A stretch of DNA of 44,816 nucleotides. It comes from Veterinaerplatzvirus T145P1. Positions 8,603 through 44,534 of this stretch are shown here, piece by piece. The stretch is taken from the sequence record OZ035767.1; one strand, written 5' to 3'. A program made the translations under genes and the position numbers. The notes below the pieces were generated by a model. That model worked only from the letters and a program-made list of their open reading frames with translations. It was not told where the DNA came from and made no database searches. The number at the start of each line of letters is the position of its first letter. Position 1 is the stretch's first letter.

Positions 8603-9259
8603 ATGGCTCATCTCAGCAATGGCACGCAGGTCTTCGTAGAAGGCTCTCGCGGAGCTGCAATTGACGTAACTGCAATTTCTAACGCAGTTACCCCTGTTTT
8701 AACTGTATCTGACGCCTCTGGCTTGGTCGTTGGTGATTACTTGCTTTTCACCTCTTCTGCCTCAACTCTTCTGGCTGACAAGCAGGTTCGCGTAACTGCA
8801 ATCACTGATACGTCAGTAACCGTTGAAGGTATTGATACCTCCAGCACCACTAAGTTCCCTGCTGGTCTAACTGGTGAAGTTGTTAAAATTACTTCATGGT
8901 TCGAGGTTCCTTGTGTTCAGGACGTATCTACTGACGGCGGCGAACAGCAGTTCGTTAACTTCCAGTGCTTGTCAGATGACCGCGAACAGCAGATTCCGAC
9001 TTATAAATCTGCCGTAACAAACACCTTCACCTTTGCTCACGAGTACACTAACCCGGTTTATCCGGTTCTGCGTAACTACGACGAGTCTGGCCAGGTTGTT
9101 GCGATTCGTCTGTTCGTACCTCGCGCTCAGGAAATGCGTTTACAGTCCGGCACTATCGCTTTCAACGACACCCCTACCATTGGTGTTAACGAAATCGAAA
9201 CGGTATCCATCGCAGTATCCATTCGTGGGCGCCTATCCTCTGTGGCAGCAGAAGTTTAA
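8603..9259 (+). CDS. major tail protein
   Basis: 218 aa, followed by terminator, located upstream of G/GT chaperones and tape measure. Confidence 0.7.
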   Translation: MAHLSNGTQVFVEGSRGAAIDVTAISNAVTPVLTVSDASGLVVGDYLLFTSSASTLLADKQVRVTAITDTSVTVEGIDTSSTTKFPAGLTGEVVKITSWFEVPCVQDVSTDGGEQQFVNFQCLSDDREQQIPTYKSAVTNTFTFAHEYTNPVYPVLRNYDESGQVVAIRLFVPRAQEMRLQSGTIAFNDTPTIGVNEIETVSIAVSIRGRLSSVAAEV

Positions 9260-9265
9260 AGCACA

Positions 9266-9288
9266 AACCCTCTTCGGAGGGTTTTTTA
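9266..9288 (+). terminator. rho-independent terminator after major tail protein gene
   Basis: ACCCTC-TTCG-GAGGGT hairpin then T6. Confidence 0.75.
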
Positions 9289-9292
9289 TTGC

Positions 9293-9338
9293 ATAGCACT
9301 TTTTGCTAAAGCGGTTATTCAACTTTGCTGTATAGTTA
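9293..9338 (+). promoter_or_regulatory. conserved palindrome-promoter element, copy 2
   Basis: ATAGCACTTTTTGCTAAA - 22 nt - TATAGTTACC then CATCGAAACGAAA leader. Confidence 0.6.
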
Positions 9339-9369
9339 CCTCATCGAAACGAAATGAGAGATTAAAGAA

Positions 9370-9618
9370 ATGAATAACGTTAAAAACATCATCAAGCTCG
9401 CTGCGGTTCTGTTTGCTTTTTATGCGGTAGTTCAGATTGTAGACCCAACAGGTGAGGCTGATGCCAATAGCAAGGCAAACAAATATACTGTTGAATTTGC
9501 TAAGGCTGAGCGAGCATGTCAGGAGCTTGTAGGTGGCAAAGTTGACCAAATCATGAAATACGGCAAAGAGGTTTGTAAGGACTCGGCTGCTAAGATTGCA
9601 AAAGAAAACACTAAGTAA
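9370..9618 (+). CDS. small secreted/membrane protein (moron-like, own promoter)
   Basis: 82 aa with hydrophobic N-terminal signal-like segment; preceded by promoter-like element 9293-9338. Confidence 0.5.
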   Translation: MNNVKNIIKLAAVLFAFYAVVQIVDPTGEADANSKANKYTVEFAKAERACQELVGGKVDQIMKYGKEVCKDSAAKIAKENTK

Positions 9619-9656
9619 TAGAATACATACTCACAAACAATAAGAGGATTAACAAA

Positions 9657-9971
9657 ATGGCAAAGTTCAAACTTTCACTGGCAGCACTCCCAGACTTTAA
9701 GCTACCAGTAAAATTTAAGCTGGCTAACGACCAGGATGTAGAGGTTATCTTTACAGTCAAGCATAAGAAAACATCTGAGTTGCAGGAGCTGCTTAGCAAG
9801 GAAGACTTGAGCACAAAAGAGCTTATTATGGCAATTGCTTCTGATTGGGATCTGGAAGAAGAATACAACGAAGATAACGTTAATGAGTTCTCAGACCTTT
9901 TCCCGGCCTCAACTGTTGCACTGACAACTGCTTACATGCAAGCGCTTGCTGGTCAGCGAGTAAAAAACTAA
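9657..9971 (+). CDS. tail assembly chaperone (lambda G-like)
   Basis: 104 aa directly upstream of tape measure; ends in slippery heptamer A AAA AAC. Confidence 0.7.
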   Translation: MAKFKLSLAALPDFKLPVKFKLANDQDVEVIFTVKHKKTSELQELLSKEDLSTKELIMAIASDWDLEEEYNEDNVNEFSDLFPASTVALTTAYMQALAGQRVKN

Positions 9972-10291
9972 AACGAGCGGTGTATCTACAGTACCAGTCA
10001 GAGCCAACTGATGCCGAACTGGAAGCTATTGGGATGCGCCGCTCTGATTACGAAGATGAAGAGCCTGAGGTTTTACACTTCGACGACAACATGATGAAGG
10101 CGTGGGACATTTATTGTTCAATGGCTACGCAGTGGAGAGTAGGAGCCAATGGAGCTACAGGGTTAGATTACAACGTGCTAAATTTCCTCTTTAGAGTGTA
10201 TAATGTTTCTGAAGAAGAATTGGTACTCAGCGATTTACGCATCCTTGAAGCTAAGGCTCTTGAGATGATGGATAACCTGAGAAAAAAATAA
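9657..10291 (+). CDS. tail assembly chaperone frameshift fusion (lambda GT-like; -1 frameshift at 9962-9968)
   Basis: Downstream ORF (track 9980-10291) is in the -1 frame relative to G and has no convincing own start; slippery site A_AAA_AAC overlaps the G stop. Confidence 0.6.
9962..9968 (+). other. -1 programmed ribosomal frameshift slippery heptamer (A AAA AAC)
   Basis: X XXY YYZ heptamer at the last sense codons of the G-like chaperone; -1 frame continues open for 103 codons. Confidence 0.6.
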
Positions 10292-10312
10292 CCCGCTTCG
10301 GCGGGTTTTCTA
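10291..10312 (+). terminator. rho-independent terminator (partial, before tape measure)
   Basis: CCCGC-TTCG-GCGGG hairpin then TTTTC. Confidence 0.55.
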
Positions 10313-10326
10313 TTATGGAGGCTTAG

Positions 10327-13308
10327 ATGGCAACAAATGAATTAGCCGGAATCACACTAGCCGTAGATGTCTCGCAAGTAGACAGGGGAACGCAATCCCT
10401 GCAAAAGTTCAGACAGGCAAACCAGCAAGCCGCTTCCGGTATTAGTGAATTCGTCAACGCTGAGCAGGTTGCTAAAAACCAGGCGAGAGATACGGCTCGT
10501 GCACTTTCTGAGCAGCAAGCGTCACTAGCTAAATTGCAAACAGCTATCGACCCAACTGCTGCAAAGTTCCGCAAGCTGCAAGAGGCAGCGGTGGGTCTTG
10601 ATAAAGCATTCGCTGCTGGCGTAGTTCCTGACGAGGAATTTTTCCGCTTAGGTGAGGCGCTAGAAACTCAAAACGCAAAACTTGCTCGTTCACGTGCGGC
10701 GCTAACTGAAGAGGGTAGGGCGGCAGCGCAGGCTGCAAAGGATAAGGCAAAAGCAAAGGCTGAAGCGGATAGATTCATTGCATCACTTGAGCGTCAGGCT
10801 CAAGCGGCAACATTGACGCGTGAGGAGTACTTAAAGTTACAAGCGGCCCAGCTTGGCGTTAGTTCTCAGGCAGCACCCATCATTGACAGAATCGCCGACG
10901 CATCACAGAAGGCAAACACCCAGTTAATTGCTCAGAGTAAGGCTTTTCAGAAATCAGGATTAAGCGCCGGGCAATACAAGAATGCCATATCTCAACTACC
11001 AGCGCAGATTACTGATATTGGCACGTCGCTTGCTGGTGGCATTCCGATTTGGCTTATTGCAATTCAGCAAGGTGGGCAGATCAAGGATGCATTTGGCGGC
11101 ATTGGTAACACCTTTAGATTCGCACTTGCAGCCTTAAACCCATTCAATGTAGCTGTTGGTGTTTTGGGTGGGGTACTTGTAGCTCTTGGTGTTGGTGCGG
11201 CTCAGGCTGAAAGTGAATTCAGAGCATTAAACTCTGCCATTGCATTTTCCAACAACTCTACAATCGCATCAATCTCGCAGGTTAGAGAGTTGGTTAGCTC
11301 TGTTTCTGATGCAACAGGTGCCACCAGAGGGCTTGTGACTAGCATCGCAACAAGCCTTATTGAGCAAGGGAACCTTACGCTGACGCAGATTGACAAGATT
11401 ACTAAATCGACCGCAAGATGGGCGCAGTTGACAGGCAAGGATGCGAAGGAAATTACTGGTTACTATAACCAGATTGCGAGCGACCCAATACAGGGATTGG
11501 TTGATTTGGATAAGCGCTTTAACTTCCTCACTCAGGGGCAGTTGACGACAATCGAAAACCTGAGAAAGACAAAGGGAGAGGTCGAGGCCGTTACCGCCGC
11601 AATTGACATTTTCAGCAAGTCGCAGGAAGCAAACCTTAACGACATAGCAGCGCAGTTAACTCCACTTGAGTTAGCCTGGAATGACTTTAGAAAGTACATC
11701 TCTGACATTTGGGATGCAATTAGCCGCAGAACGGTTGGGGCGCTAAACCTGTTTGTTGACGTAATTGCCGGAACAATTGAGCAGATCAGGGTCTTCATTA
11801 ACCAGGGTGACGTACTGATTGGTGAATTCGTAATTAGCGCAACGCAAGCGCTGCAAAACATTCCTGGTCTTGATGGTGTTGGTGATGATGTCATAAAGAG
11901 CCAGCAGAAGATTATCGATGCAGCCAAGAAGCAAAACCTTGAGCTAGAAAAGTCTATCAAGGAGCGCGATGCCAGAATAAGAGAAGGAGAACTTGGTTAC
12001 GTTACTCGCAGAGAAAATCAGAATACCAATGAGCAGTCAGGCACGGATGAGGAGTTTGCAAAAAGGAAGAAGGCGCTTCAGGATGAACTTGATGCGATCA
12101 AGAAGAACAGGAAAGAAGAAAATGGCAGGGTTAAAGAGCAAAGAGACCTTACAATTGGTTACGAATCTGGCGTACTGGCACTTCAGGCTCAACTCAAGGT
12201 TCTTCAGGAAAATAGGGATATTGGCGCAGTAATAAGTAATGAGCGCAAGCAGTATCTTCAGGATGAAGCCAAATTCAGGATTCTTGAGCAGAGGCAGCTT
12301 GATGGTTCAATCACCAAAGAGCAGTCAAGACTTCTTCTTGAGAAGGATAAAGTCCTCGAATTGGCAAGGCAGAAGGCTGAACTTGGAGATCAGATTGTTT
12401 TGCAGGAGCGAGCCAATAAGTTAGCTGAAGATAACCGCAAGAAGATTCTTCAGATTAACAACGAAGCAAAAAACATTGATTTGGGGGCTGGTCTATCTTC
12501 TCGTGAACAACAGAGAGCCAAAGAGATTCAGGCTCTTCAGTCCAATCAGGTTAATGCTGGTGGCGCAATTGATGACGTGGATTTTCAGCAGCTTCTCGAG
12601 GCAAGACGTAACTTTTATGCTCAGGAAGATGCGCTACGTGAAAACTGGCTTGCTGGTGTGAACCAATCCTTTGCTAATTGGGCTGAGAGCGCGAAGGATG
12701 CATTCTCAATTGCTGGAAGTTTAACCACCACAGTATTTGAAGGCATTACTGACCAGATTACTGACCTTGTAACAACTGGTGAAACTAACTTCAGAGAGTT
12801 CACTGTTAACATCCTTAAACAGATTGCTAAGATTGCGGCTCAGCTTCTTATTGTTAAGGCTATCGAGTCTAGTTTAAGTAGCTTTGGTGGTACTGGTGGC
12901 GCGATTGGCTCTATCGCATCTGCGATTGGTGGTGGATTCGCTAACGGTGGTTATACTGGTAATGGAGGGAAATACCAACCAGCAGGAACCGTACACCGTG
13001 GTGAGTTTGTATTCACAAAAGAAGCAACTAGTCGAATCGGTGTTAAGAACCTTTACGCTCTAATGAAAGGTTACGCAAACGGTGGTGTCGTTGGTGGTCC
13101 CTCTGGCTATGCAAATGGTGGCTTGGTTTCTGGAGGCACAGATGTTAATGTTAGTGGAATTACGGTTAACGTTAATAGTGGAATTGGAAGTGACCCAGAG
13201 CAGGCCAAGGCGCTGCAAAATGGCGTTAAGGCAATTGTAGCTGAAGAGATTTCTCAGTCTTTCCAGCAGGGTGGCAGAGCTTATCAGTACCTGCGCGGAT
13301 TTAACTAA
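10327..13308 (+). CDS. tail tape measure protein
   Basis: 993 aa, long alpha-helical/coiled-coil regions, Gly-rich C-terminus, canonical position. Confidence 0.9.
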   Translation: MATNELAGITLAVDVSQVDRGTQSLQKFRQANQQAASGISEFVNAEQVAKNQARDTARALSEQQASLAKLQTAIDPTAAKFRKLQEAAVGLDKAFAAGVVPDEEFFRLGEALETQNAKLARSRAALTEEGRAAAQAAKDKAKAKAEADRFIASLERQAQAATLTREEYLKLQAAQLGVSSQAAPIIDRIADASQKANTQLIAQSKAFQKSGLSAGQYKNAISQLPAQITDIGTSLAGGIPIWLIAIQQGGQIKDAFGGIGNTFRFALAALNPFNVAVGVLGGVLVALGVGAAQAESEFRALNSAIAFSNNSTIASISQVRELVSSVSDATGATRGLVTSIATSLIEQGNLTLTQIDKITKSTARWAQLTGKDAKEITGYYNQIASDPIQGLVDLDKRFNFLTQGQLTTIENLRKTKGEVEAVTAAIDIFSKSQEANLNDIAAQLTPLELAWNDFRKYISDIWDAISRRTVGALNLFVDVIAGTIEQIRVFINQGDVLIGEFVISATQALQNIPGLDGVGDDVIKSQQKIIDAAKKQNLELEKSIKERDARIREGELGYVTRRENQNTNEQSGTDEEFAKRKKALQDELDAIKKNRKEENGRVKEQRDLTIGYESGVLALQAQLKVLQENRDIGAVISNERKQYLQDEAKFRILEQRQLDGSITKEQSRLLLEKDKVLELARQKAELGDQIVLQERANKLAEDNRKKILQINNEAKNIDLGAGLSSREQQRAKEIQALQSNQVNAGGAIDDVDFQQLLEARRNFYAQEDALRENWLAGVNQSFANWAESAKDAFSIAGSLTTTVFEGITDQITDLVTTGETNFREFTVNILKQIAKIAAQLLIVKAIESSLSSFGGTGGAIGSIASAIGGGFANGGYTGNGGKYQPAGTVHRGEFVFTKEATSRIGVKNLYALMKGYANGGVVGGPSGYANGGLVSGGTDVNVSGITVNVNSGIGSDPEQAKALQNGVKAIVAEEISQSFQQGGRAYQYLRGFN

Positions 13309-19305: not shown

Positions 19306-20274
19306 GTAGAAGTTTGGGATAAATGGAAGTGCCATTGATATGTTCGTGTCGAAAGGAAACTGAGCGCCTGTCTGAGTTGAGTAGTTACCTATTACAGATC
19401 CAGGAACAGCCCTAACGGAGCCTCCAGACATGCAAACACCCTTGTATCGTAAGTTGTTATACCCTCCGGTAACTCTAGTCGTAGCGCCGCACCTAAGCAG
19501 CGGGAAGAAACCACCATTTATTGACTGATATCCATTGCTTATTTGTATAAATCCACCAAGAACGAATGGGCGGCGAACACTTGAAAAAACAATCTGACCA
19601 GAACTATTTGACATTGTGAGTCCAGGCCCGGCCGGTGGTGGTTCATTCCTGAATATCACCAGCTGAACATGGGTACTTGCCGCAACATCATCTGTACCTC
19701 CGTAGGTTATATCCCTACACCATATTGTTGATCCATCTGATTCAAGTGATACGTTTGGATTATCCCACTTGCCGAATGGTATTCCGCTAACTGGTAGCGA
19801 TGCTGCACCGTTAACCTGTATGCCCCCAACCCAGGCCGCAGACATTAGCCGCGAGTTGCTTGATATAGCAAGGAAATCAGTTGAGTTCTCAACAAGTATT
19901 CCAGGACTTGATGAGGATGAAGCCGGTAGTATCTCAAAGCAATTACCAGCAAAGTCAATTATTCGACCATTAGCACCATTGAAGTTGCTGAGAGTTATCC
20001 TGCCAGTTCCGTCATTTACCTTTTGAAACCCGTTCATGTAATAAACTTCGGGTATAACATCGTAAGCGTCAACGTGGACTGCCTTCGTTGGTAGGCAGAA
20101 AGCCGTAGAGCCAGGAGACATTGTCAATCCAAAATCCCACGAGATTGCCGGGGTTGAAAGTCCATTGGTATTTATTGATCCAGTCACAGCAGGTGCCCTT
20201 AATCCTGCCGTGATTTCCATCGCTGGTCTTCCGTCATTGAGGTCAATCAATATACCCTGCGGCATTATTTCCAC
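19303..20274 (-). CDS. tail-associated protein, candidate receptor-binding protein
   Basis: 323 aa Gly/Ser/Asn-rich, convergent to J, co-transcribed with a small lipoprotein; function inferred from context. Confidence 0.45.
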
Positions 20275-24101: not shown

Positions 24102-26435
24102 TTAACCTATTTTAGTGTAAGTCCATTGGTATGTTGCAGCTCCCTGGGCAGTTATCCCGACAGTTCTTCCACTTACATCCATTGAAGTGAAAGCGCCAGT
24201 TTTTGTAATTGTTATTGATGATGTGGAACCATCAAAAAGTACGTCAGCAATTACACTATAGTTAGGTCCAGCACCAGTAACCCAGGTCGAAACCTTGTAT
24301 AAACCAGCGTTGTTTGGCAACTCAAAAAGACCAGTTGAAACATTCGCCTGAACAGCCATCGCGCCCTTTCCGGTGTACACACCGTCAGTTTTAAGACCTA
24401 ATGATGAATATGTTTGCTTATAGCCACCAATGATGGCACCACCCATAGGTTCAGTAAACCAGTTCACATTACCCTGACTAACAACAGATATCGCTGGAGA
24501 CCCCCCTTTAGCTGACTGAAACCTACCGCTTAAAATGTCAATTCTAGATGCTGAGTCCTGGGCGTAGATAGTTACAGGATACCCACCAGAACCAGTGTAA
24601 ACCAAGCCGTTATCATTAATGTCATCTTCAGACGAGTCAATGATTACATGGGAAGTTCCAGACGCCTTGATGAACGAAACAACACCGCTAGAACCAGCAC
24701 CTGTTGTTCTAACTTCATTCTTCCATGATGTTAGGCCTGAAATTCTGCCATTTGAGTTATTAAACCTAATCAGGCAACAATCTTGCGATCCGTTGGTGTC
24801 AATAATGTTACCTTCAACGTCCATCCCTAGTATGTTTACGCTATGGCTGTTGATGAAGTTAATCCCAGCACCACCGTAAGAACCAGATGTTGATGATATA
24901 TTACTGGCATCCATTGCGCAGTTAATCATTGTAACGCTCATTACCGAACCAAATTCATAAGGTGAAATGCAATCTGATGCGTAACAAGTCTCAAGCAATA
25001 TTGTCGTTCCTGTCGCCTTTATGAATCCAGCCCTGCAATTCCTGGCCCAAACATTCTGTAGCTTAGTCTGGTATGTTCCAGTGGTGTCCGTGTAGCAACC
25101 CCATGCTCCATGGACTGTGCAATCTTTGATACATGAATTTTCTAGCCCTGTTGCAGAACCAACATTAGAAACGAAGTTAAATGCTATCTTTTGATCATTC
25201 CCTGATGCTGAGGTAGGTGTAGTGCCTGGGTTATAAAAAATGTAAAGTCCCTCAATAAACACTTGATACATTCTTATGTTTTGCGCATCACCCTGAACCA
25301 GGGCGAATAGGTTTATGTTCCCATCAACTGAGATAAATGTTTGCGCCCTGTTAATTTGGTTTGTTCCCTCGCCAATAATTCTTGTACTGTTGCCAATCCT
25401 CACCGTCCTGTTAATGAACATAAAACCTTTTGGTATGTATACAGTTTTACCGGTATCAACTGCCGCCTGAAGCGCAACTGCGTCAAGCGACTCGTTAAGG
25501 TTTGATGCAAATGGATAAACAAACCGTGCATCCTCAATTGACGAGAATTTAGATGATAGCGGAACTAAAGTACCATTGTTTGTGGCGCCGAAATCCATAA
25601 CGTTAACAAAATCACTAAGTTTTGATTCCACGCTTCTAACCACTGATGATACATTATTCAGCTTGAAGTTTATCATTGATGAGCCATTATCATTCTCAAG
25701 ATTTTTGAGGACCCTTCCGTTTGAAAGAAGCCTCCAGCCAGTCTCATCATCTATACCCCCCGTTCCTTCTGGGGTTGATCCTTGCGGTACAACCTTAGGG
25801 AATGCTCCAGACCACACATAAACAGAAGAGTTCTCAATGTCTATGATTTGCTGAGAATCACCCTGAAGAGTAACGCCACCTTGAAAGCTACCAACTAAAG
25901 CTCCTGAAACTGATGCTGCCGCACTCTGAGCAGTGCTTGCAGAGTTGCTTGCAGACAATGCGGAACTAGAAGCAGAATCCTTGTCACTCGCAACCTGGGC
26001 GGCATCATTTGAAACCTGCGCACCAATTGAAATTACTTCACCATACTGCGTGTTAACCTGCGAAACCTTTGTGCTAAAGTCATTTGCATCAAAGTTTTTG
26101 AAAGCATCAACAGCATCTGAAACCTCAGTTTCACGTGACTGATAGTAACGGAGAGTCTCCGCAACATCCTGAGCCAGCCCCTGAACGGTAATTCCATCAT
26201 GCGCAAGGATAGCGTAACCAGTTCCAGCAGGAACAGTTTCGGAGTTAGGGTTGTAAACATTAATCTGCGTATCGCTGATAATTTCTGAGATGGTGTAAAT
26301 CTGTACTGGTTCAGTTTTAAATACAATGGTTGCACCTACACGAATCAGTGTAAGAGGTGCTTTCCATGTTGTCCCGACGCCAGTCACCTCACCACTTGCT
26401 GCTAGAGAAGCTGTTCCTGAGTCATAAATTGCCAT
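24102..26435 (-). CDS. tail fibre / tailspike with beta-helix-like C-terminal domain
   Basis: Start moved to ATG 26435 (MAIYD...); N-terminal fibre-anchor-like region, Ser/Ala-rich repeats, C-terminal Gly/Asn/Thr/Cys-rich region typical of parallel beta-helix. Confidence 0.7.
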   Translation of the reverse strand: MAIYDSGTASLAASGEVTGVGTTWKAPLTLIRVGATIVFKTEPVQIYTISEIISDTQINVYNPNSETVPAGTGYAILAHDGITVQGLAQDVAETLRYYQSRETEVSDAVDAFKNFDANDFSTKVSQVNTQYGEVISIGAQVSNDAAQVASDKDSASSSALSASNSASTAQSAAASVSGALVGSFQGGVTLQGDSQQIIDIENSSVYVWSGAFPKVVPQGSTPEGTGGIDDETGWRLLSNGRVLKNLENDNGSSMINFKLNNVSSVVRSVESKLSDFVNVMDFGATNNGTLVPLSSKFSSIEDARFVYPFASNLNESLDAVALQAAVDTGKTVYIPKGFMFINRTVRIGNSTRIIGEGTNQINRAQTFISVDGNINLFALVQGDAQNIRMYQVFIEGLYIFYNPGTTPTSASGNDQKIAFNFVSNVGSATGLENSCIKDCTVHGAWGCYTDTTGTYQTKLQNVWARNCRAGFIKATGTTILLETCYASDCISPYEFGSVMSVTMINCAMDASNISSTSGSYGGAGINFINSHSVNILGMDVEGNIIDTNGSQDCCLIRFNNSNGRISGLTSWKNEVRTTGAGSSGVVSFIKASGTSHVIIDSSEDDINDNGLVYTGSGGYPVTIYAQDSASRIDILSGRFQSAKGGSPAISVVSQGNVNWFTEPMGGAIIGGYKQTYSSLGLKTDGVYTGKGAMAVQANVSTGLFELPNNAGLYKVSTWVTGAGPNYSVIADVLFDGSTSSITITKTGAFTSMDVSGRTVGITAQGAATYQWTYTKIG

Positions 26436-28085: not shown

Positions 28086-30080
28086 ATGTTGCCTATCGAG
28101 AAGCTGGTTGCAAATTTCGATAAAGAAAGAATCAAACAGATTCAGAAAGACTATCAGTTTGGAGAGATAACCCCTTACGAATTCCAGTGCGTGACATTTG
28201 ATGCAATCGGAAAGGCTATTGGCAAGTACGAGGCACCATTTATCGCAGACCTTTCAGTATCTGCGGGTAAGACAATCATTCTTGCCATGATTGGTAAGCG
28301 CATGGAGCAGCTTGGGCTTCCCTATATGGTTCTCTCTCGCCAGTCAGAGATTATCAGCCAGAACTCAGAAGAGCTTCGTAATTTCGGCATACGTAATAGC
28401 GTCTATTGCGCTGGCCTTAACGTCAAATCAGTTTACTACCCAACTATAGTGGCCAGCGAGGGTACGGCAGCCAACGGCTTGTTTAAGGGGCTTGGTGACT
28501 ATGTTCCGGCAGTTATCGCTATAGATGAGTGTCACATGGTCGATCACATGGATATCGTGGAGGCTGAAGAGAATGAAGAAACATTTGAGCAAATGAGCAC
28601 AAAGAAAGGCGATATGGTTTTTAAGGATGGCGTAAACACAGGATTGCTTGGTACTGGTCGTGCGCAGTACACGCTAATTATCACCGAGATGAAACGTCGT
28701 TGTCGTGAGAAGTACGGGCGTGAGCTTCGTATATTCGGTCTTACTGGCAGCCCGTATCGTAACAACGATCATATCGTCGTTAGCAACCCAAACATCCGTG
28801 GATTCTGGCGCAAAACAGTGATTCAGGTGCCAACAAATTATCTGGTTGATTTGGGCTTCGTTGTTCCTACTGTTTATGGTGAAGTTGGTGACCTGGGTTA
28901 TGACCTTAGTGAGTTTGCGCCAGACGGAAGCGATGGCGTTAAAGACTTCAGCAAGAAAGAAATGGATGCAATGGCTGCAAAGATTCACGACAACCAATCA
29001 ATGACCCAAAAGATAATGGGTTTTGTTGTGAAAATACTCGAGACTCGTAACGCTGCATTGGTAACATGCGCTGGCAAACTCCATTGTGATGAGGCTGCTG
29101 CGGCACTACCAGATGGATACCCTTACGCCATCATCACAGACTCTACGGGAGAGAGGAAGCGCAGGGAGATTCTGGCTGATTGCCAGACAGGTAAGTACAA
29201 AATAATATTCCAGATTGGTTGTCTTACTACGGGCGTAAACCAGCCGCTGTGGGATACTAGCGTCATACTACGCAAGATTGGCAGCCTAACGCTTATGATT
29301 CAGCTTCTTGGTAGGGGGATGCGCAAACTTAATAGATCTCATATTGATGCTGGTTTTCATAAAGAAGATCACCTTGTGCTGGATTTTGCTGGCGCACTTG
29401 ATGATATGGCTGAGCTTTACTTTGACCCAATTATTGAAGAGATTCAGGCTGAGAAGTTTAAATCCTCAAGAAAAGGTGGCGATGAGGTTCGTCAGTGTCC
29501 GCAATGTGGATATGAAAATTCCCCATTCGCTCGTCGCTGTAGCAATAAGATTGATGGCGTTAGATGCGATCACTTCTTTCAGTTCACAATTTGCGAAGAC
29601 ATTACCGACGCGCAAACTAAATCGGTAATTAAAAAGGGTTGTGGCGCTCGCAATGACATAGCAGCAAAGGTTTGCAGGGAATGCGGCGAGATGCTTAAAG
29701 ACCCAAATGCTAACCTGACTGGCAAAATGTATCGTCGTGGTGATTACCTTCGTGTTTATGATTTTCAAGTTGGGTTAAGTAAGAATCAGACAGGCATTGT
29801 AGTTAAGTACAATATAATGGCTCATAACGGAGAGAGATTTAACGCTTGGGAGTTCTTTAATCCAGAATCAGACCATCGAGTTTGCAGTGTGCTCTGGAAG
29901 AACTTTTGCTTAGCTCATATTGAGAATCGCACGGAAGCGGCACGAATTGGCAGGCTTAAAAATGCCAGAATGATTATGACTAACGTAGATAAGTTCCGTG
30001 CGCCAGTTCAGGTTACGCATCGCCGGAATGCAAAAGGAAAGGACGTGATAGCGTTTAAGAATTTTGGAGAATTATTATGA
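28086..30080 (+). CDS. SF2 DNA helicase with C-terminal zinc-ribbon
   Basis: Walker A-like SAGKT, DECH box, QLLGRGMR motif VI, CPQCG...CRECG zinc ribbons. Confidence 0.8.
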   Translation: MLPIEKLVANFDKERIKQIQKDYQFGEITPYEFQCVTFDAIGKAIGKYEAPFIADLSVSAGKTIILAMIGKRMEQLGLPYMVLSRQSEIISQNSEELRNFGIRNSVYCAGLNVKSVYYPTIVASEGTAANGLFKGLGDYVPAVIAIDECHMVDHMDIVEAEENEETFEQMSTKKGDMVFKDGVNTGLLGTGRAQYTLIITEMKRRCREKYGRELRIFGLTGSPYRNNDHIVVSNPNIRGFWRKTVIQVPTNYLVDLGFVVPTVYGEVGDLGYDLSEFAPDGSDGVKDFSKKEMDAMAAKIHDNQSMTQKIMGFVVKILETRNAALVTCAGKLHCDEAAAALPDGYPYAIITDSTGERKRREILADCQTGKYKIIFQIGCLTTGVNQPLWDTSVILRKIGSLTLMIQLLGRGMRKLNRSHIDAGFHKEDHLVLDFAGALDDMAELYFDPIIEEIQAEKFKSSRKGGDEVRQCPQCGYENSPFARRCSNKIDGVRCDHFFQFTICEDITDAQTKSVIKKGCGARNDIAAKVCRECGEMLKDPNANLTGKMYRRGDYLRVYDFQVGLSKNQTGIVVKYNIMAHNGERFNAWEFFNPESDHRVCSVLWKNFCLAHIENRTEAARIGRLKNARMIMTNVDKFRAPVQVTHRRNAKGKDVIAFKNFGELL

Positions 30081-30496
30081 AGATTACAGATAAAGAAGAT
30101 TACATTGAGTTTTACCCGGGTCCGGTTAAGTCATGCCCTAAAGAGGATGACGAACAAATCTTTTGCTCTGATTGGGTTAAGTATAACTACCCAGATATGG
30201 TATTTTTCCATTGCGTGAATGAGGGAAAGAAAACCATTGGTCAAGCAAGAAAAGACCAGGCTAAGGGGCTTCTAAAAGGCGTATCAGACTGTATGTTTCT
30301 TATTCCTGAATCACTTCGAGGTAAGTATCCTTTCGGAGCTATAGAGCTAAAGAGGGCTGGCAAAACTCAAGCAAGTCCAGTCAGCGAAGAACAGAAGGCA
30401 TTCCTGAAAAGTGTAATGGAATCAGGCGGTTTCTCGGCAGTCGCCTACGGACGTGAGGGTTTTCTTGCAGCATTCAAAGAAATGATTTCAAAATAG
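30077..30496 (+). CDS. VRR-NUC domain nuclease
   Basis: 139 aa with PD-(D/E)XK-like D...ELK core; ATGA-coupled to helicase. Confidence 0.6.
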   Translation: MKITDKEDYIEFYPGPVKSCPKEDDEQIFCSDWVKYNYPDMVFFHCVNEGKKTIGQARKDQAKGLLKGVSDCMFLIPESLRGKYPFGAIELKRAGKTQASPVSEEQKAFLKSVMESGGFSAVAYGREGFLAAFKEMISK

Positions 30497-44457: not shown

Positions 44458-44534
44458 GCTCGAGTGGCGAAAGTGGATATCGCAAGAGACTTCTAATCTC
44501 TAGATTGCTGGTTCGAATCCAGCCTCGAGCGCCA
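44458..44534 (+). tRNA. tRNA-Arg (anticodon UCU), CCA encoded
   Basis: Hand-folded cloverleaf with all four stems fully Watson-Crick paired (7/4/5/5 bp); U8, A14, G18G19, U33; anticodon loop CUUCUAA; T-loop TTCGAAT; discriminator G then CCA. Confidence 0.9.

What the first reader, a model, noticed from the sequence alone, without database searches (positions are those of the whole stretch)
9962..10291. Programmed -1 frameshift producing a G-T-like tail chaperone fusion
The G-like chaperone ORF (9657-9971) ends with the slippery heptamer A AAA AAC (9962-9968). The next ORF (track 9980-10291) is in the -1 frame, begins with a non-ATG codon and has no good RBS, but is open from the slip site onward. 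This matches the conserved G/GT frameshift of lambda-like tail modules directly upstream of the tape measure gene.
Basis: partly seen in the sequence, partly recalled or inferred. Interest (0 to 1): 0.5.

Follow-up and report, generated by a model that had tools for sequence, protein, structure and literature searches.

The report
Tail chaperone G/GT ribosomal frameshift site
This is the standard programmed -1 ribosomal frameshift that lets a T1-like E. coli phage make a short and a long tail-assembly chaperone from one gene; it is real but ordinary, and relatives already have it annotated.

Summary
The window is a T1-like siphophage (Drexlerviridae, Braunvirinae), 99.8% identical to Veterinaerplatzvirus T145P1. 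ORF 9657-9971 is a Phage_TAC_4 tail assembly chaperone. It ends gtA AAA AAC TAA, so the in-phase heptamer is at 9962-9968. The -1 frame is open from 9887 to 10291 and encodes a DUF1799 "T" domain. The pair lies between the tail tube gene (8603-9259) and the tape measure gene (10327-13308).

The heptamer alone is not above chance; the support is comparative. The G-then-T(-1) layout recurs in more than 880 phage records. Conserved coding switches from frame 0 to frame -1 exactly at the heptamer. Slip motifs vary but stay -1 competent: A_AAA_AAC, A_AAG, A_AAA_G, G_GGA_AAC. The GTG at 9980 is not a start codon in T1 and other lineages. One relative (OzMSK) annotates the joined product, and PHROG 17368 is a family of fused proteins.

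One addition: a 70-nt hairpin (9975-10044) starts 6 nt after the heptamer. It is the most stable 76-nt window on this strand and its synonymous variation is suppressed, so it is probably a frameshift stimulator.

One correction: the junction is more likely ...VKN-LKR... than ...VKK-LKR....

Nothing here shows that the fusion is actually made. The kind is already known and interest is low.

The parts
9657..9971 (+). G-type tail assembly chaperone ORF (104 aa), the product of standard decoding
   Evidence: ATG 9657, TAA 9969. PF08748 Phage_TAC_4, E=6e-33, full length. phrog_569 and phrog_17368. AGAGGA Shine-Dalgarno at 9642-9647.
9962..9968 (+). Slippery heptamer A_AAA_AAC, in phase (gtA AAA AAC)
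   Evidence: Read directly. Identical heptamer plus TAA in T1, Tempevirinae, Eclunavirus and all Braunvirinae loci. Replaced by A_AAG, A_AAA_G or G_GGA_AAC in other lineages, always at the last 2-3 codons of G.
9969..9974 (+). G stop codon UAA (9969-9971) and the rest of the 6-nt spacer between heptamer and hairpin
   Evidence: A 5-9 nt spacer is the usual distance to a 3' stimulator (review PMC5009743).
9975..10044 (+). 70-nt mRNA hairpin: 13-bp basal stem GAGCGGUGUAUCU/GGGAUGCGCCGCUC plus a 10-bp upper stem. Candidate frameshift stimulator.
   Evidence: MFE -34.3 kcal/mol, z=-3.75 (100 nt) and -5.3 (82 nt), 0 of 200 shuffles as stable. Rank 1 of 11,185 76-nt windows on the + strand. Synonymous-codon resampling z=-4.4, 0 of 500. 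Third-codon positions in stems: 1 of 15 variable, against 98 of 197 elsewhere in G+T; p=0.0009. Weaker on the antisense strand, -25.6.
9968..10291 (+). T extension decoded in the -1 frame after the slip (107 codons plus TAA). GT fusion = join(9657..9968, 9968..10291), 211 aa.
   Evidence: -1 frame open 9887-10291. PF08809 DUF1799, E=6e-16. phrog_17368 positions 107-210. AF2 model pLDDT 94.9 matches annotated tape measure chaperones, including 210-277 aa fusions.
9980..9982 (+). GTG, the only candidate independent start for a free T protein. It lies inside the 5' arm of the basal stem.
   Evidence: It is GTT/GTC in T1-type loci, GTA in Rogunavirinae-like loci and GTT in Webervirus.
8603..9259 (+). 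Context: major tail (tube) protein gene upstream
   Evidence: PF08813 Phage_tail_3, E=4.5e-68. phrog_584.
10327..13308 (+). Context: tape measure protein gene directly downstream
   Evidence: PF06791 TMP_2 and PF09718 Tape_meas_lam_C.

Best explanation
Most ribosomes translating the chaperone gene from ATG 9657 terminate at UAA 9969 and release the 104-aa G-type chaperone. A minority slip one base backwards on A_AAA_AAC (9962-9968). In that slip, tRNA-Lys re-pairs from AAA to AAA and tRNA-Asn re-pairs from AAC to AAA. Those ribosomes bypass the stop and continue from CUA 9968 in the -1 frame to UAA 10289, giving a 211-aa G-T fusion (...AGQRVK-N-LKRAVYLQ...). The hairpin at 9975-10044, 6 nt downstream, probably sits at the mRNA entrance when the heptamer occupies the P and A sites and raises the slip frequency on a heptamer that is intrinsically weak in E. 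coli.

By analogy with lambda, G and the G part of GT would coat the tape measure protein (10327-13308). The T domain (DUF1799) would recruit the tail tube protein (8603-9259). Neither product would end up in the virion.

Shown here: the sequence anatomy, the protein family assignments, the family-wide conservation of the -1 arrangement and of a slip-competent motif, and the statistical exceptionality and conservation of the hairpin. Inferred, not shown: that the fusion is made, its ratio to G, that the hairpin stimulates slipping, and the roles in assembly.
For: Anatomy.

Gene context and families: Phage_TAC_4, DUF1799, tail tube gene upstream and tape measure gene downstream. phrog_17368 (213 positions) is matched by G at positions 1-107 and by T at 107-210, so it is a family of fused products.

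Conservation:
- tblastn of the fusion finds 1140 phage records. 883 of them cover at least 80% of the query; every such record among the 60 rows listed matches as two pieces, as expected for two reading frames.
- In 33 of the 36 related loci fetched, T is in the -1 frame and a slip-competent motif sits in the last codons of G; the exceptions are 2725-N35 (A5 run, T in +1), the indel-ridden contig L031 and Ralstonia L036, read only from its six-frame translation.
- Amino-acid conservation switches from frame 0 to frame -1 exactly at the heptamer. Upstream identity is 0.46-0.83 in frame 0 against 0.25-0.50 in frame -1. Downstream it is 0.46-0.96 in frame -1 against 0.12-0.50 in frame 0.
- LKRAV between the heptamer and GTG 9980 is conserved through synonymous changes (CGA to AGG, GTG to GTT/GTA).
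- The first start codon in the T frame is codon 43 in T1, 52 in Webervirus and 67 in VLCpiS8c.

Prior annotation and literature: OzMSK annotates a joined CDS. A T1-like phage paper describes the frameshift as analogous to lambda G/GT (PMC6763657). AAAAAAC next to the chaperone stop codon is reported for phage Loki and the phiCbK phages.

Hairpin. Spacer rule.

A 206-aa single-ORF homologue aligns end to end with the predicted fusion, E=3e-30.
Against: There is no experimental evidence for this phage or for any T1-like phage in what I could search.

A_AAA_AAC is much less shift-prone than A_AAA_AAG in E. coli (review).

GTG 9980 is conserved within Braunvirinae, and the OzMSK annotators noted an independent RBS, so some free T cannot be excluded.

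The hairpin is not family-wide. Rogunavirinae-like loci and Eclunavirus Phc show no excess structure (z from -0.02 to +2.1), and that group includes L013 and Phc, which carry the same A_AAA_AAC. It is therefore not required for the arrangement to persist.

Within Braunvirinae there is too little variation for true compensatory covariation: one A-U to G-U change only.

The single-ORF homologue lies on an 811-nt contig at 2.6x coverage and could be an assembly indel.
Confidence: 0.87

Rival explanations
1. T is made as a free 103-aa protein by independent initiation, or by termination-reinitiation, at GTG 9980, which lies 8 nt after the G stop codon. No fusion would be needed in this lineage.
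For: GTG at this position is conserved in all Braunvirinae loci. Several have AGAGGG just upstream. The OzMSK annotation note says the frameshifted product 'also has independent RBS'. Ribosomes terminating at 9969 would have melted the stem that hides the GTG. The DUF1799 domain starts after the GTG.
Against: The codon is GTT/GTC in T1-type loci, GTA in Rogunavirinae-like loci and GTT in Webervirus. The next start codon lies 24-67 codons into T. The five codons between the slip site and the GTG encode conserved LKRA, maintained through synonymous changes, so they are translated in the -1 frame. In this window the SD-like GAG is only 2 nt from the GTG, and both lie in the 13-bp basal stem. Fused products define phrog_17368.
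Confidence: 0.08
2. The fusion arises by transcriptional slippage. RNA polymerase adds one A in the A6 run (9962-9967), giving an mRNA in which G and T are in frame (...VKK-LKR...).
For: A homopolymeric A6 run is present, and a +1 A insertion would produce exactly the -1 frame fusion. Transcriptional slippage is a known route to such products (review PMC5009743).
Against: From general knowledge, six A is shorter than the runs of about 8-9 used in known bacterial cases. Related lineages keep the same -1 arrangement with non-homopolymeric motifs that suit tRNA re-pairing but not polymerase slippage: G_GGA_AAC, gcA_AAG_G and cA_AAG_C. A hairpin 6 nt downstream fits a ribosomal mechanism.
Confidence: 0.03
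3. There is no recoding. The split is an artefact (a homopolymer sequencing error in what is really a single ORF), or a chance juxtaposition of a heptamer with an open -1 frame.
For: Homopolymer runs are error-prone. One relative (2725-N35) has A5 instead of A6. The heptamer count in the window is at chance level.
Against: A6 plus TAA with T in the -1 frame is identical in all but one (2725-N35, A5) of the independently sequenced Braunvirinae, T1-type and Tempevirinae genomes and the Eclunavirus genome fetched, and the -1 relation holds down to 26-33% protein identity. Of the 150 best DUF1799 representatives, only one is a single-ORF fusion.
Confidence: 0.02

Closest known systems
Phage lambda G/GT tail assembly chaperone frameshift (G_GGA_AAG; Levin et al. 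1993; Xu, Hendrix and Duda 2004, 2013, 2014, as summarised in PMC5009743 and PMC3296357)
   Same: Two ORFs lie between the major tail gene and the tape measure gene, with the downstream ORF in the -1 frame. An in-phase X_XXY_YYZ heptamer sits at the end of G, and tRNA-Lys takes part in the slip. The region downstream of the lambda heptamer also folds better than shuffles by the same test, z=-3.45.
   Different: The protein families differ: lambda has PF06894 and PF06223, this window has PF08748 and PF08809. BLASTP and hhalign find no similarity. The heptamer here ends in AAC, so the 0-frame and -1 frame junction residues differ (Asn against Lys). The stop codon abuts the heptamer, whereas in lambda it lies 5 codons further on. 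An extra 82-aa ORF sits between the tail tube gene and G.
T1-type chaperone pair (T1 gp40/gp39; joined 'tape measure chaperone' CDS of Escherichia phage OzMSK, PQ659294; Klebsiella phages Skenny and Solomon; phrog_17368)
   Same: True homologues with 42-99% identity and the same Pfam pair. T1 has the same A_AAA_AAC plus TAA and the same -1 frame. The fusion is already annotated in OzMSK and described for Skenny.
   Different: The GTG at codon 6 of the extension and the long 70-nt hairpin are specific to the Braunvirinae lineage. T1 has a shorter hairpin, GGCGGUU...AACCGCC, 7 nt after the heptamer. Rogunavirinae-like phages mostly use A_AAG (one, L013, keeps A_AAA_AAC) and show no excess structure.
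E. coli dnaX -1 frameshift cassette (A_AAA_AAG, 5' Shine-Dalgarno stimulator, 3' stem-loop)
   Same: An A-rich heptamer decoded by the single tRNA-Lys, and a 3' stem-loop at a spacing of about 6 nt.
   Different: The Z base is C rather than G, which is much less shifty in E. coli. No GGAG, GAGG or AGGA lies within 20 nt upstream of the heptamer (read). The expected efficiency is a few per cent by analogy with lambda, not 50%. The frameshift product here is the longer one.
AAAAAAC chaperone frameshift sites in Acinetobacter phage Loki and Caulobacter phiCbK-like phages
   Same: [quoted passage not shown] CcrColossus uses GGGAAAC, as Pseudomonas PS-1 and Ralstonia YO190_1 do here.
   Different: They are unrelated or only remotely related at the sequence level. 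The Foldseek hit to the CcrColossus chaperone is weak, E=0.09.

Membership tests
G/GT-type tail assembly chaperone programmed frameshift (organisational class of Xu, Hendrix and Duda 2004) | The ORF pair lies between the major tail (tube) gene and the tape measure gene | tested here: met
   Tail tube gene 8603-9259 (PF08813), G 9657-9971, T to 10291, tape measure gene 10327-13308 (PF06791, PF09718). An extra 82-aa ORF at 9370-9618 intervenes between the tube gene and G.
G/GT-type tail assembly chaperone programmed frameshift (organisational class of Xu, Hendrix and Duda 2004) | The downstream ORF is in a shifted frame and open across the end of the upstream ORF | tested here: met
   The -1 frame is open 9887-10291 and overlaps the last 28 codons of G.
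G/GT-type tail assembly chaperone programmed frameshift (organisational class of Xu, Hendrix and Duda 2004) | [quoted passage not shown] | tested here: met
   gtA AAA AAC TAA at 9962-9971. Equivalent motifs sit at the same place in relatives.
G/GT-type tail assembly chaperone programmed frameshift (organisational class of Xu, Hendrix and Duda 2004) | The arrangement is conserved in relatives despite sequence divergence, and the coding signal switches frame at the slip site | tested here: met
   883 of 1140 phage records cover at least 80% of the fusion; all such rows listed match as two pieces. The frame switch in conservation is shown. Slip motifs turn over, but the -1 relation is kept.
G/GT-type tail assembly chaperone programmed frameshift (organisational class of Xu, Hendrix and Duda 2004) | The downstream ORF has no translation start of its own | tested here: inconclusive
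   Met at family level: T1, Webervirus, Rogunavirinae-like and other loci have no start codon for 24-67 codons. This lineage keeps GTG 9980 with a poor, stem-sequestered SD.
G/GT-type tail assembly chaperone programmed frameshift (organisational class of Xu, Hendrix and Duda 2004) | Both G and GT are made at a fixed low GT:G ratio, both are required for tail assembly, and both are absent from virions | not testable with these tools
   This needs protein detection and genetics. No experimental paper on a T1-like phage was found.
T1-type chaperone proteins (Pfam PF08748 Phage_TAC_4 plus PF08809 DUF1799; phrog_17368) | Scores above the curated Pfam thresholds over the full domain lengths | tested here: met
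   G scores 114.1 bits against a cutoff of 21.1, profile positions 1-124 of 124. T scores 58.9 bits against a cutoff of 26, positions 1-80 of 80. T1's own pair hits the same two families.
Lambda gpG (PF06894 Phage_TAC_2) and gpT (PF06223 Phage_tail_T) protein families | Detectable sequence or profile similarity to lambda G and T | tested here: not met
   No Pfam hit to PF06894 or PF06223. BLASTP E=1.3 for G and E=0.032 over 12 residues for T. hhalign of a 64-sequence DUF1799 profile against lambda T gives probability 0.7%. No lambda T appears among the BFVD fold hits.
Bacterial -1 PRF cassette with a 3' structural stimulator (dnaX/IS911 type) | A stable mRNA structure starts 5-9 nt after the heptamer | tested here: met
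   The hairpin at 9975-10044 starts after a 6-nt spacer, at -34.3 kcal/mol. It is the extreme of 11,185 windows, exceeds all synonymous resamples, and has suppressed synonymous variation in its stems. This is a prediction only; function was not tested.
Bacterial -1 PRF cassette with a 3' structural stimulator (dnaX/IS911 type) | A Shine-Dalgarno-like stimulator lies about 10 nt 5' of the heptamer | tested here: not met
   9940-9961 reads aagcgcttgctggtcagcgagt, with no GGAG, GAGG or AGGA.

The most novel reading that the evidence does not exclude
The 70-nt hairpin at 9975-10044 is a true, lineage-specific frameshift stimulator. If so, slip-site and stimulator combinations turn over quickly within one phage family. 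Examples seen here are A_AAA_AAC plus a long hairpin in Braunvirinae, A_AAA_AAC plus a short hairpin in T1, and A_AAG with no structure in Rogunavirinae-like phages. Each combination would tune the G:GT ratio independently. In this lineage the same stem would also hide a GTG that might allow a little free T by reinitiation. That would make Drexlerviridae a natural series for asking how chaperone stoichiometry is set.
Probability: 0.4. Interest if true: 0.35.

Novelty: already known. Interest (0 to 1): 0.15.

Why it matters
The main value is for annotation. The nearest database records (Veterinaerplatzvirus T145P1) carry no annotation, and many relatives list G and T as two 'hypothetical' or mislabelled 'tape measure' proteins. 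The correct call is a 104-aa chaperone plus a 211-aa frameshift product, join(9657..9968, 9968..10291).

Biologically the site repeats a textbook mechanism. The one modest addition is that the strongest predicted mRNA structure on this strand of the 44.8-kb window sits exactly where a frameshift stimulator should. It is conserved in this subfamily and differs or is absent in sister subfamilies. That gives a tractable system for studying how the G:GT ratio is tuned.

Tried and rejected
Searches and checks that led nowhere:
- The search for homologous proteins with the fusion returned a single 123-aa hit and was uninformative.
- The PDB sequence search with the fusion found nothing.
- Xu et al. 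2013 (PMC3762263) is not held. Two literature searches on Drexlerviridae and Tunavirinae frameshifting found nothing.
- Rfam finds no family at the site; its only hit in the window is a tRNA.

Alternatives considered and rejected:
- A second in-phase heptamer, T_TTC_CCG at 9899-9905, lies inside the overlap. It is rejected as the conserved site because L012 and L013 have a -1 frame stop only 12 codons before the G stop, and 0-frame conservation continues up to the A-run.
- Minus-strand ORFs overlapping the region (9611-9868, 9319-9549, 10323-10574) have no PHROG match and are taken as spurious.
- Homology between DUF1799 and lambda gpT: the only signal is a 12-residue TGLDYNVL / SGLTYTVL resemblance, which hhalign does not support.
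- A clean rule of 'weak heptamer needs a hairpin': L013 and Phc have A_AAA_AAC without excess structure.

Caveat: the codon-resampling null used this window's codon usage for all loci, so the z-scores for distant phages such as PS-1 are rough.
Full report
**What the window is.** The 1.4 kb around the finding is 99.7-99.8% identical to three unannotated records of Veterinaerplatzvirus T145P1. It is 91-95% identical to about 75 other E. coli siphophages of Drexlerviridae/Braunvirinae, including DTL, CEB_EC3a, OzMSK/Msk and the vB_EcoS-12210I group. This is therefore a T1-like virulent phage.

**Observation.**
- ATG 9657 opens a 104-aa ORF that ends ...CGA GTA AAA AAC TAA, with the stop at 9969-9971.
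- A AAA AAC at 9962-9968 is thus an in-phase X_XXY_YYZ heptamer that abuts the stop codon.
- The -1 frame is open from 9887 to TAA 10289-10291. From the heptamer it reads KKLKRAVYLQYQSEP....
- The mechanical ORF list starts this frame at GTG 9980.

The heptamer alone is not above chance. AAAAAAC occurs 12 times against 13.5 expected. Six-frame ORFs of at least 60 aa carry 61 in-phase XXXYYYZ heptamers. Only six of those have a -1 extension of at least 30 codons beyond the 0-frame stop, and only this one abuts the stop and has the long (106-codon) extension beyond it. That extension is a recognised domain.

**What the parts are.**
- G is a full-length PF08748 Phage_TAC_4 tail assembly chaperone, E=6e-33.
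- The -1 frame product is PF08809 DUF1799, E=6e-16.
- The upstream gene 8603-9259 is a PF08813 tail tube protein.
- The downstream gene 10327-13308 is a tape measure protein (PF06791 and PF09718).
- In PHROGs, family 17368 (213 positions) is matched by G at positions 1-107 and by the -1 frame product at positions 107-210. The family is therefore built from fused G-T proteins joined at just this point.
- An AlphaFold2 model of the T domain is confident (pLDDT 94.9). In BFVD it matches proteins named 'tape measure chaperone', including 210-277 aa annotated fusion products of Klebsiella phage Solomon, Serratia phage Scapp and Salmonella phage Shivani.

**Comparative evidence for the fusion.**
- tblastn with the conceptual fusion finds 1140 phage records. 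In 883 of them at least 80% of the query is covered; every such record among the 60 rows listed matches as two pieces, consistent with two reading frames.
- I examined 36 related loci, spanning 26-99% protein identity. T lies in the -1 frame relative to G in all but two: 2725-N35, discussed below, and L031, a contig with evident indels. Ralstonia L036 was read only from its six-frame translation.
- A slip-competent motif sits in the last two or three codons of G, and it differs by lineage:
  - A_AAA_AAC plus TAA in Braunvirinae, T1 itself, Tempevirinae (tuinn) and Eclunavirus (Phc);
  - gcA_AAG_GTC in most Rogunavirinae-like phages (L013 keeps A_AAA_AAC);
  - gcA_AAA_GTT in Webervirus;
  - cA_AAG in VLCpiS8c;
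  - G_GGA_AAC in Pseudomonas PS-1 and Ralstonia YO190_1.
- Amino-acid conservation switches frame exactly at the heptamer. Over the 24 codons upstream, identity to the window is 0.46-0.83 in frame 0 and 0.25-0.50 in frame -1. Over the 24 codons downstream, it is 0.46-0.96 in frame -1 and 0.12-0.50 in frame 0.
- The five codons between the heptamer and GTG 9980 encode LKRA in nearly all E. coli phage lineages. They do so through synonymous changes (CGA to AGG, AAA to AAG), so they are read in the -1 frame upstream of any possible start.
- The Val codon at 9980 is GTT/GTC in T1-type loci, GTA in Rogunavirinae-like loci and GTT in Webervirus. The first start codon in the T frame is then 24-67 codons further on: codon 43 in T1, 52 in Webervirus, 67 in VLCpiS8c.
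- In L012 and L013 the -1 frame has a stop 12 codons before the G stop. The shift window is therefore confined to the last dozen codons of G, which rules out the second in-phase heptamer T_TTC_CCG at 9899-9905 as the conserved site.

**Prior annotation and literature.**
- OzMSK (91% identical) annotates a two-piece joined 'tape measure chaperone' CDS as the frameshifted product.
- The announcement of the T1-like Klebsiella phage Skenny states that the chaperones contain a frameshift analogous to lambda G/GT (PMC6763657).
- AAAAAAC directly next to the chaperone stop codon is described for Acinetobacter phage Loki. AAAAAAC and GGGAAAC are described for phiCbK-like phages.
- The mechanism and its role in lambda are reviewed in PMC5009743 and PMC3296357. 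G:GT is about 30:1 from G_GGA_AAG. G binds the tape measure protein and T binds the tail tube protein. Neither is in the virion.

**An addition: a downstream hairpin.** RNA folding of 9969-10068 gives a 70-nt hairpin at 9975-10044. It has a 13-bp basal stem, GAGCGGUGUAUCU/GGGAUGCGCCGCUC, and a 10-bp upper stem. It starts 6 nt after the heptamer, inside the 5-9 nt range typical of 3' stimulators.
- MFE is -34.3 kcal/mol, with z=-3.75 (100 nt) and -5.3 (82 nt). None of 200 shuffles is as stable.
- Of 11,185 overlapping 76-nt windows on the + strand of the 44.8 kb, the two most stable are the ones that cover this hairpin. The window mean is -13.8 with sd 4.5.
- With the T protein sequence held fixed and synonymous codons resampled, the null is -17.3 +/- 3.8, giving z=-4.4 and 0 of 500 as stable.
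- Among 11 Braunvirinae sequences that are 90-94% identical across G+T, third-codon positions vary at 98 of 197 sites outside the stems but at 1 of 15 sites inside them (Fisher p=0.0009). The one change, A to G at 9976, turns A-U into G-U. The variable sites within the hairpin span fall in the apical loop.
- The antisense strand folds less well (-25.6, z=-2.4), because the stem contains G-U pairs. This points to an RNA-level element on the mRNA strand.
- GTG 9980 and the GAG before it lie in the basal stem.

Other lineages differ.
- T1 and tuinn have a shorter hairpin, GGCGGUU...AACCGCC, 7 nt after the heptamer (z=-3.3 to -4.1 against synonymous resamples).
- Webervirus and PS-1 show excess structure over 78 nt (z about -3).
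- Rogunavirinae-like phages and Phc show none (z from -0.02 to +2.1), although L013 and Phc carry A_AAA_AAC.

The hairpin is therefore lineage-specific and not required for the arrangement. Lambda's own downstream region also folds better than shuffles (z=-3.45), so a predicted structure here is not a departure from the paradigm. Whether it stimulates slipping is an inference.

**Mechanism and a correction.** The review states that A_AAA_AAC is far less shift-prone than A_AAA_AAG in E. coli. A weak heptamer combined with a strong stem-loop is a coherent way to reach a low, fixed GT fraction.

In canonical tandem slippage the A-site tRNA is chosen in frame 0, so the junction residue is Asn and the fusion reads ...AGQRVK-N-LKRAVYLQ... 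(211 aa). The junction is so rich in K and R that tryptic peptides would be useless. Glu-C or chymotrypsin is needed.

**Rivals.**
- Independent initiation or termination-reinitiation at GTG 9980 cannot be excluded as a minor extra route in this lineage. The GTG is conserved in Braunvirinae, and the OzMSK annotators noted an RBS. It cannot be the family's way of expressing T, for the reasons given above.
- Transcriptional slippage on A6 is unlikely. Sister lineages keep the -1 relation with non-homopolymeric motifs.
- A sequencing artefact is excluded by all but one of the independently sequenced genomes fetched having the same A6. The one exception, 2725-N35, has A5, which puts T in the +1 frame. 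That is probably a homopolymer error in that record.
- Among the 150 best DUF1799 representatives from 1.84 billion proteins, almost all are 60-140 aa stand-alone calls whose N-termini begin wherever a start-like codon happens to lie. Only one is a 206-aa single-ORF fusion. It aligns end to end with the predicted fusion (E=3e-30) but sits on an 811-nt contig at 2.6x coverage.

**Comparison and membership.** The site works like lambda G/GT and meets every sequence-level criterion of that organisational class. It is not a member of the lambda G (PF06894) or T (PF06223) protein families. It is a plain member of the T1-type pair PF08748 plus PF08809.

**Verdict.** The phenomenon is already known and already annotated in close relatives, so interest is low. 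The only mildly new item is the exceptionally stable, conserved hairpin placed where a stimulator should be, together with the turnover of slip motifs and structures across Drexlerviridae.

Noticed in passing
window 9265-9284 and 10290-10307: Terminator-like GC hairpins followed by T-runs bracket the chaperone cassette. One follows the tail tube gene. The other (AACCCGCTTCGGCGGGTT + TTCTATT) overlaps the T stop codon, about 20 nt before the tape measure start at 10327. A promoter-like TTGCAA-17-TAGAAT lies at 9596-9624, just upstream of G. The EC3a annotators predicted equivalent elements. A terminator between the chaperone and the tape measure gene could adjust their relative dosage.
   Followed up: partly
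window 9370-9618 (+): An 82-aa ORF lies between the tail tube gene and G. Lambda has no counterpart in its V-G-T-H order. It matches phrog_22925 (unknown function, E=2e-54), has no Pfam hit, and is annotated as hypothetical in relatives.
   Followed up: partly
L002 3660-3672 (Escherichia phage 2725-N35, MN840485): This relative has A5 instead of A6 at the slip site. G is extended to 117 aa and T falls in the +1 frame. Its annotators called two overlapping ORFs. It is probably a homopolymer sequencing error, but it could be a real variant.
   Followed up: partly
window 44458-44534 (+): A tRNA-Arg gene (anticodon TCT), the only Rfam or ARAGORN hit in the window.
   Followed up: no
window 9899-9905 (+): A second in-phase X_XXY_YYZ heptamer, T_TTC_CCG, lies inside G and inside the -1-open overlap. 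It is not a conserved shift site, because relatives have a -1 frame stop downstream of the equivalent position.
   Followed up: yes
window 29457-29463, 30457-30463 (+); 19312-19318, 26315-26321 (-): Four other in-phase slippery heptamers (TTTAAAT, GGGTTTT, CCCAAAC, TTTAAAA) in mechanical ORFs have -1 extensions of at least 30 codons beyond the 0-frame stop. Some of these ORFs are probably spurious. None was examined further.
   Followed up: no
L039 173-793 (ENA metagenome contig, 811 nt, 2.6x coverage): A 206-aa single ORF carries both Phage_TAC_4 and DUF1799. It is either a natural in-frame G-T fusion or an assembly indel. It lacks about 7 residues at the point where the other phages shift frame.
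   Followed up: partly
L038 1217-1298 (phage lambda, downstream of G_GGA_AAG): The 82 nt after lambda's own slip site are predicted to fold at -36.4 kcal/mol, z=-3.45 against shuffles, with a stem starting 7 nt after the heptamer. I did not check this against the experimental literature on lambda.
   Followed up: no
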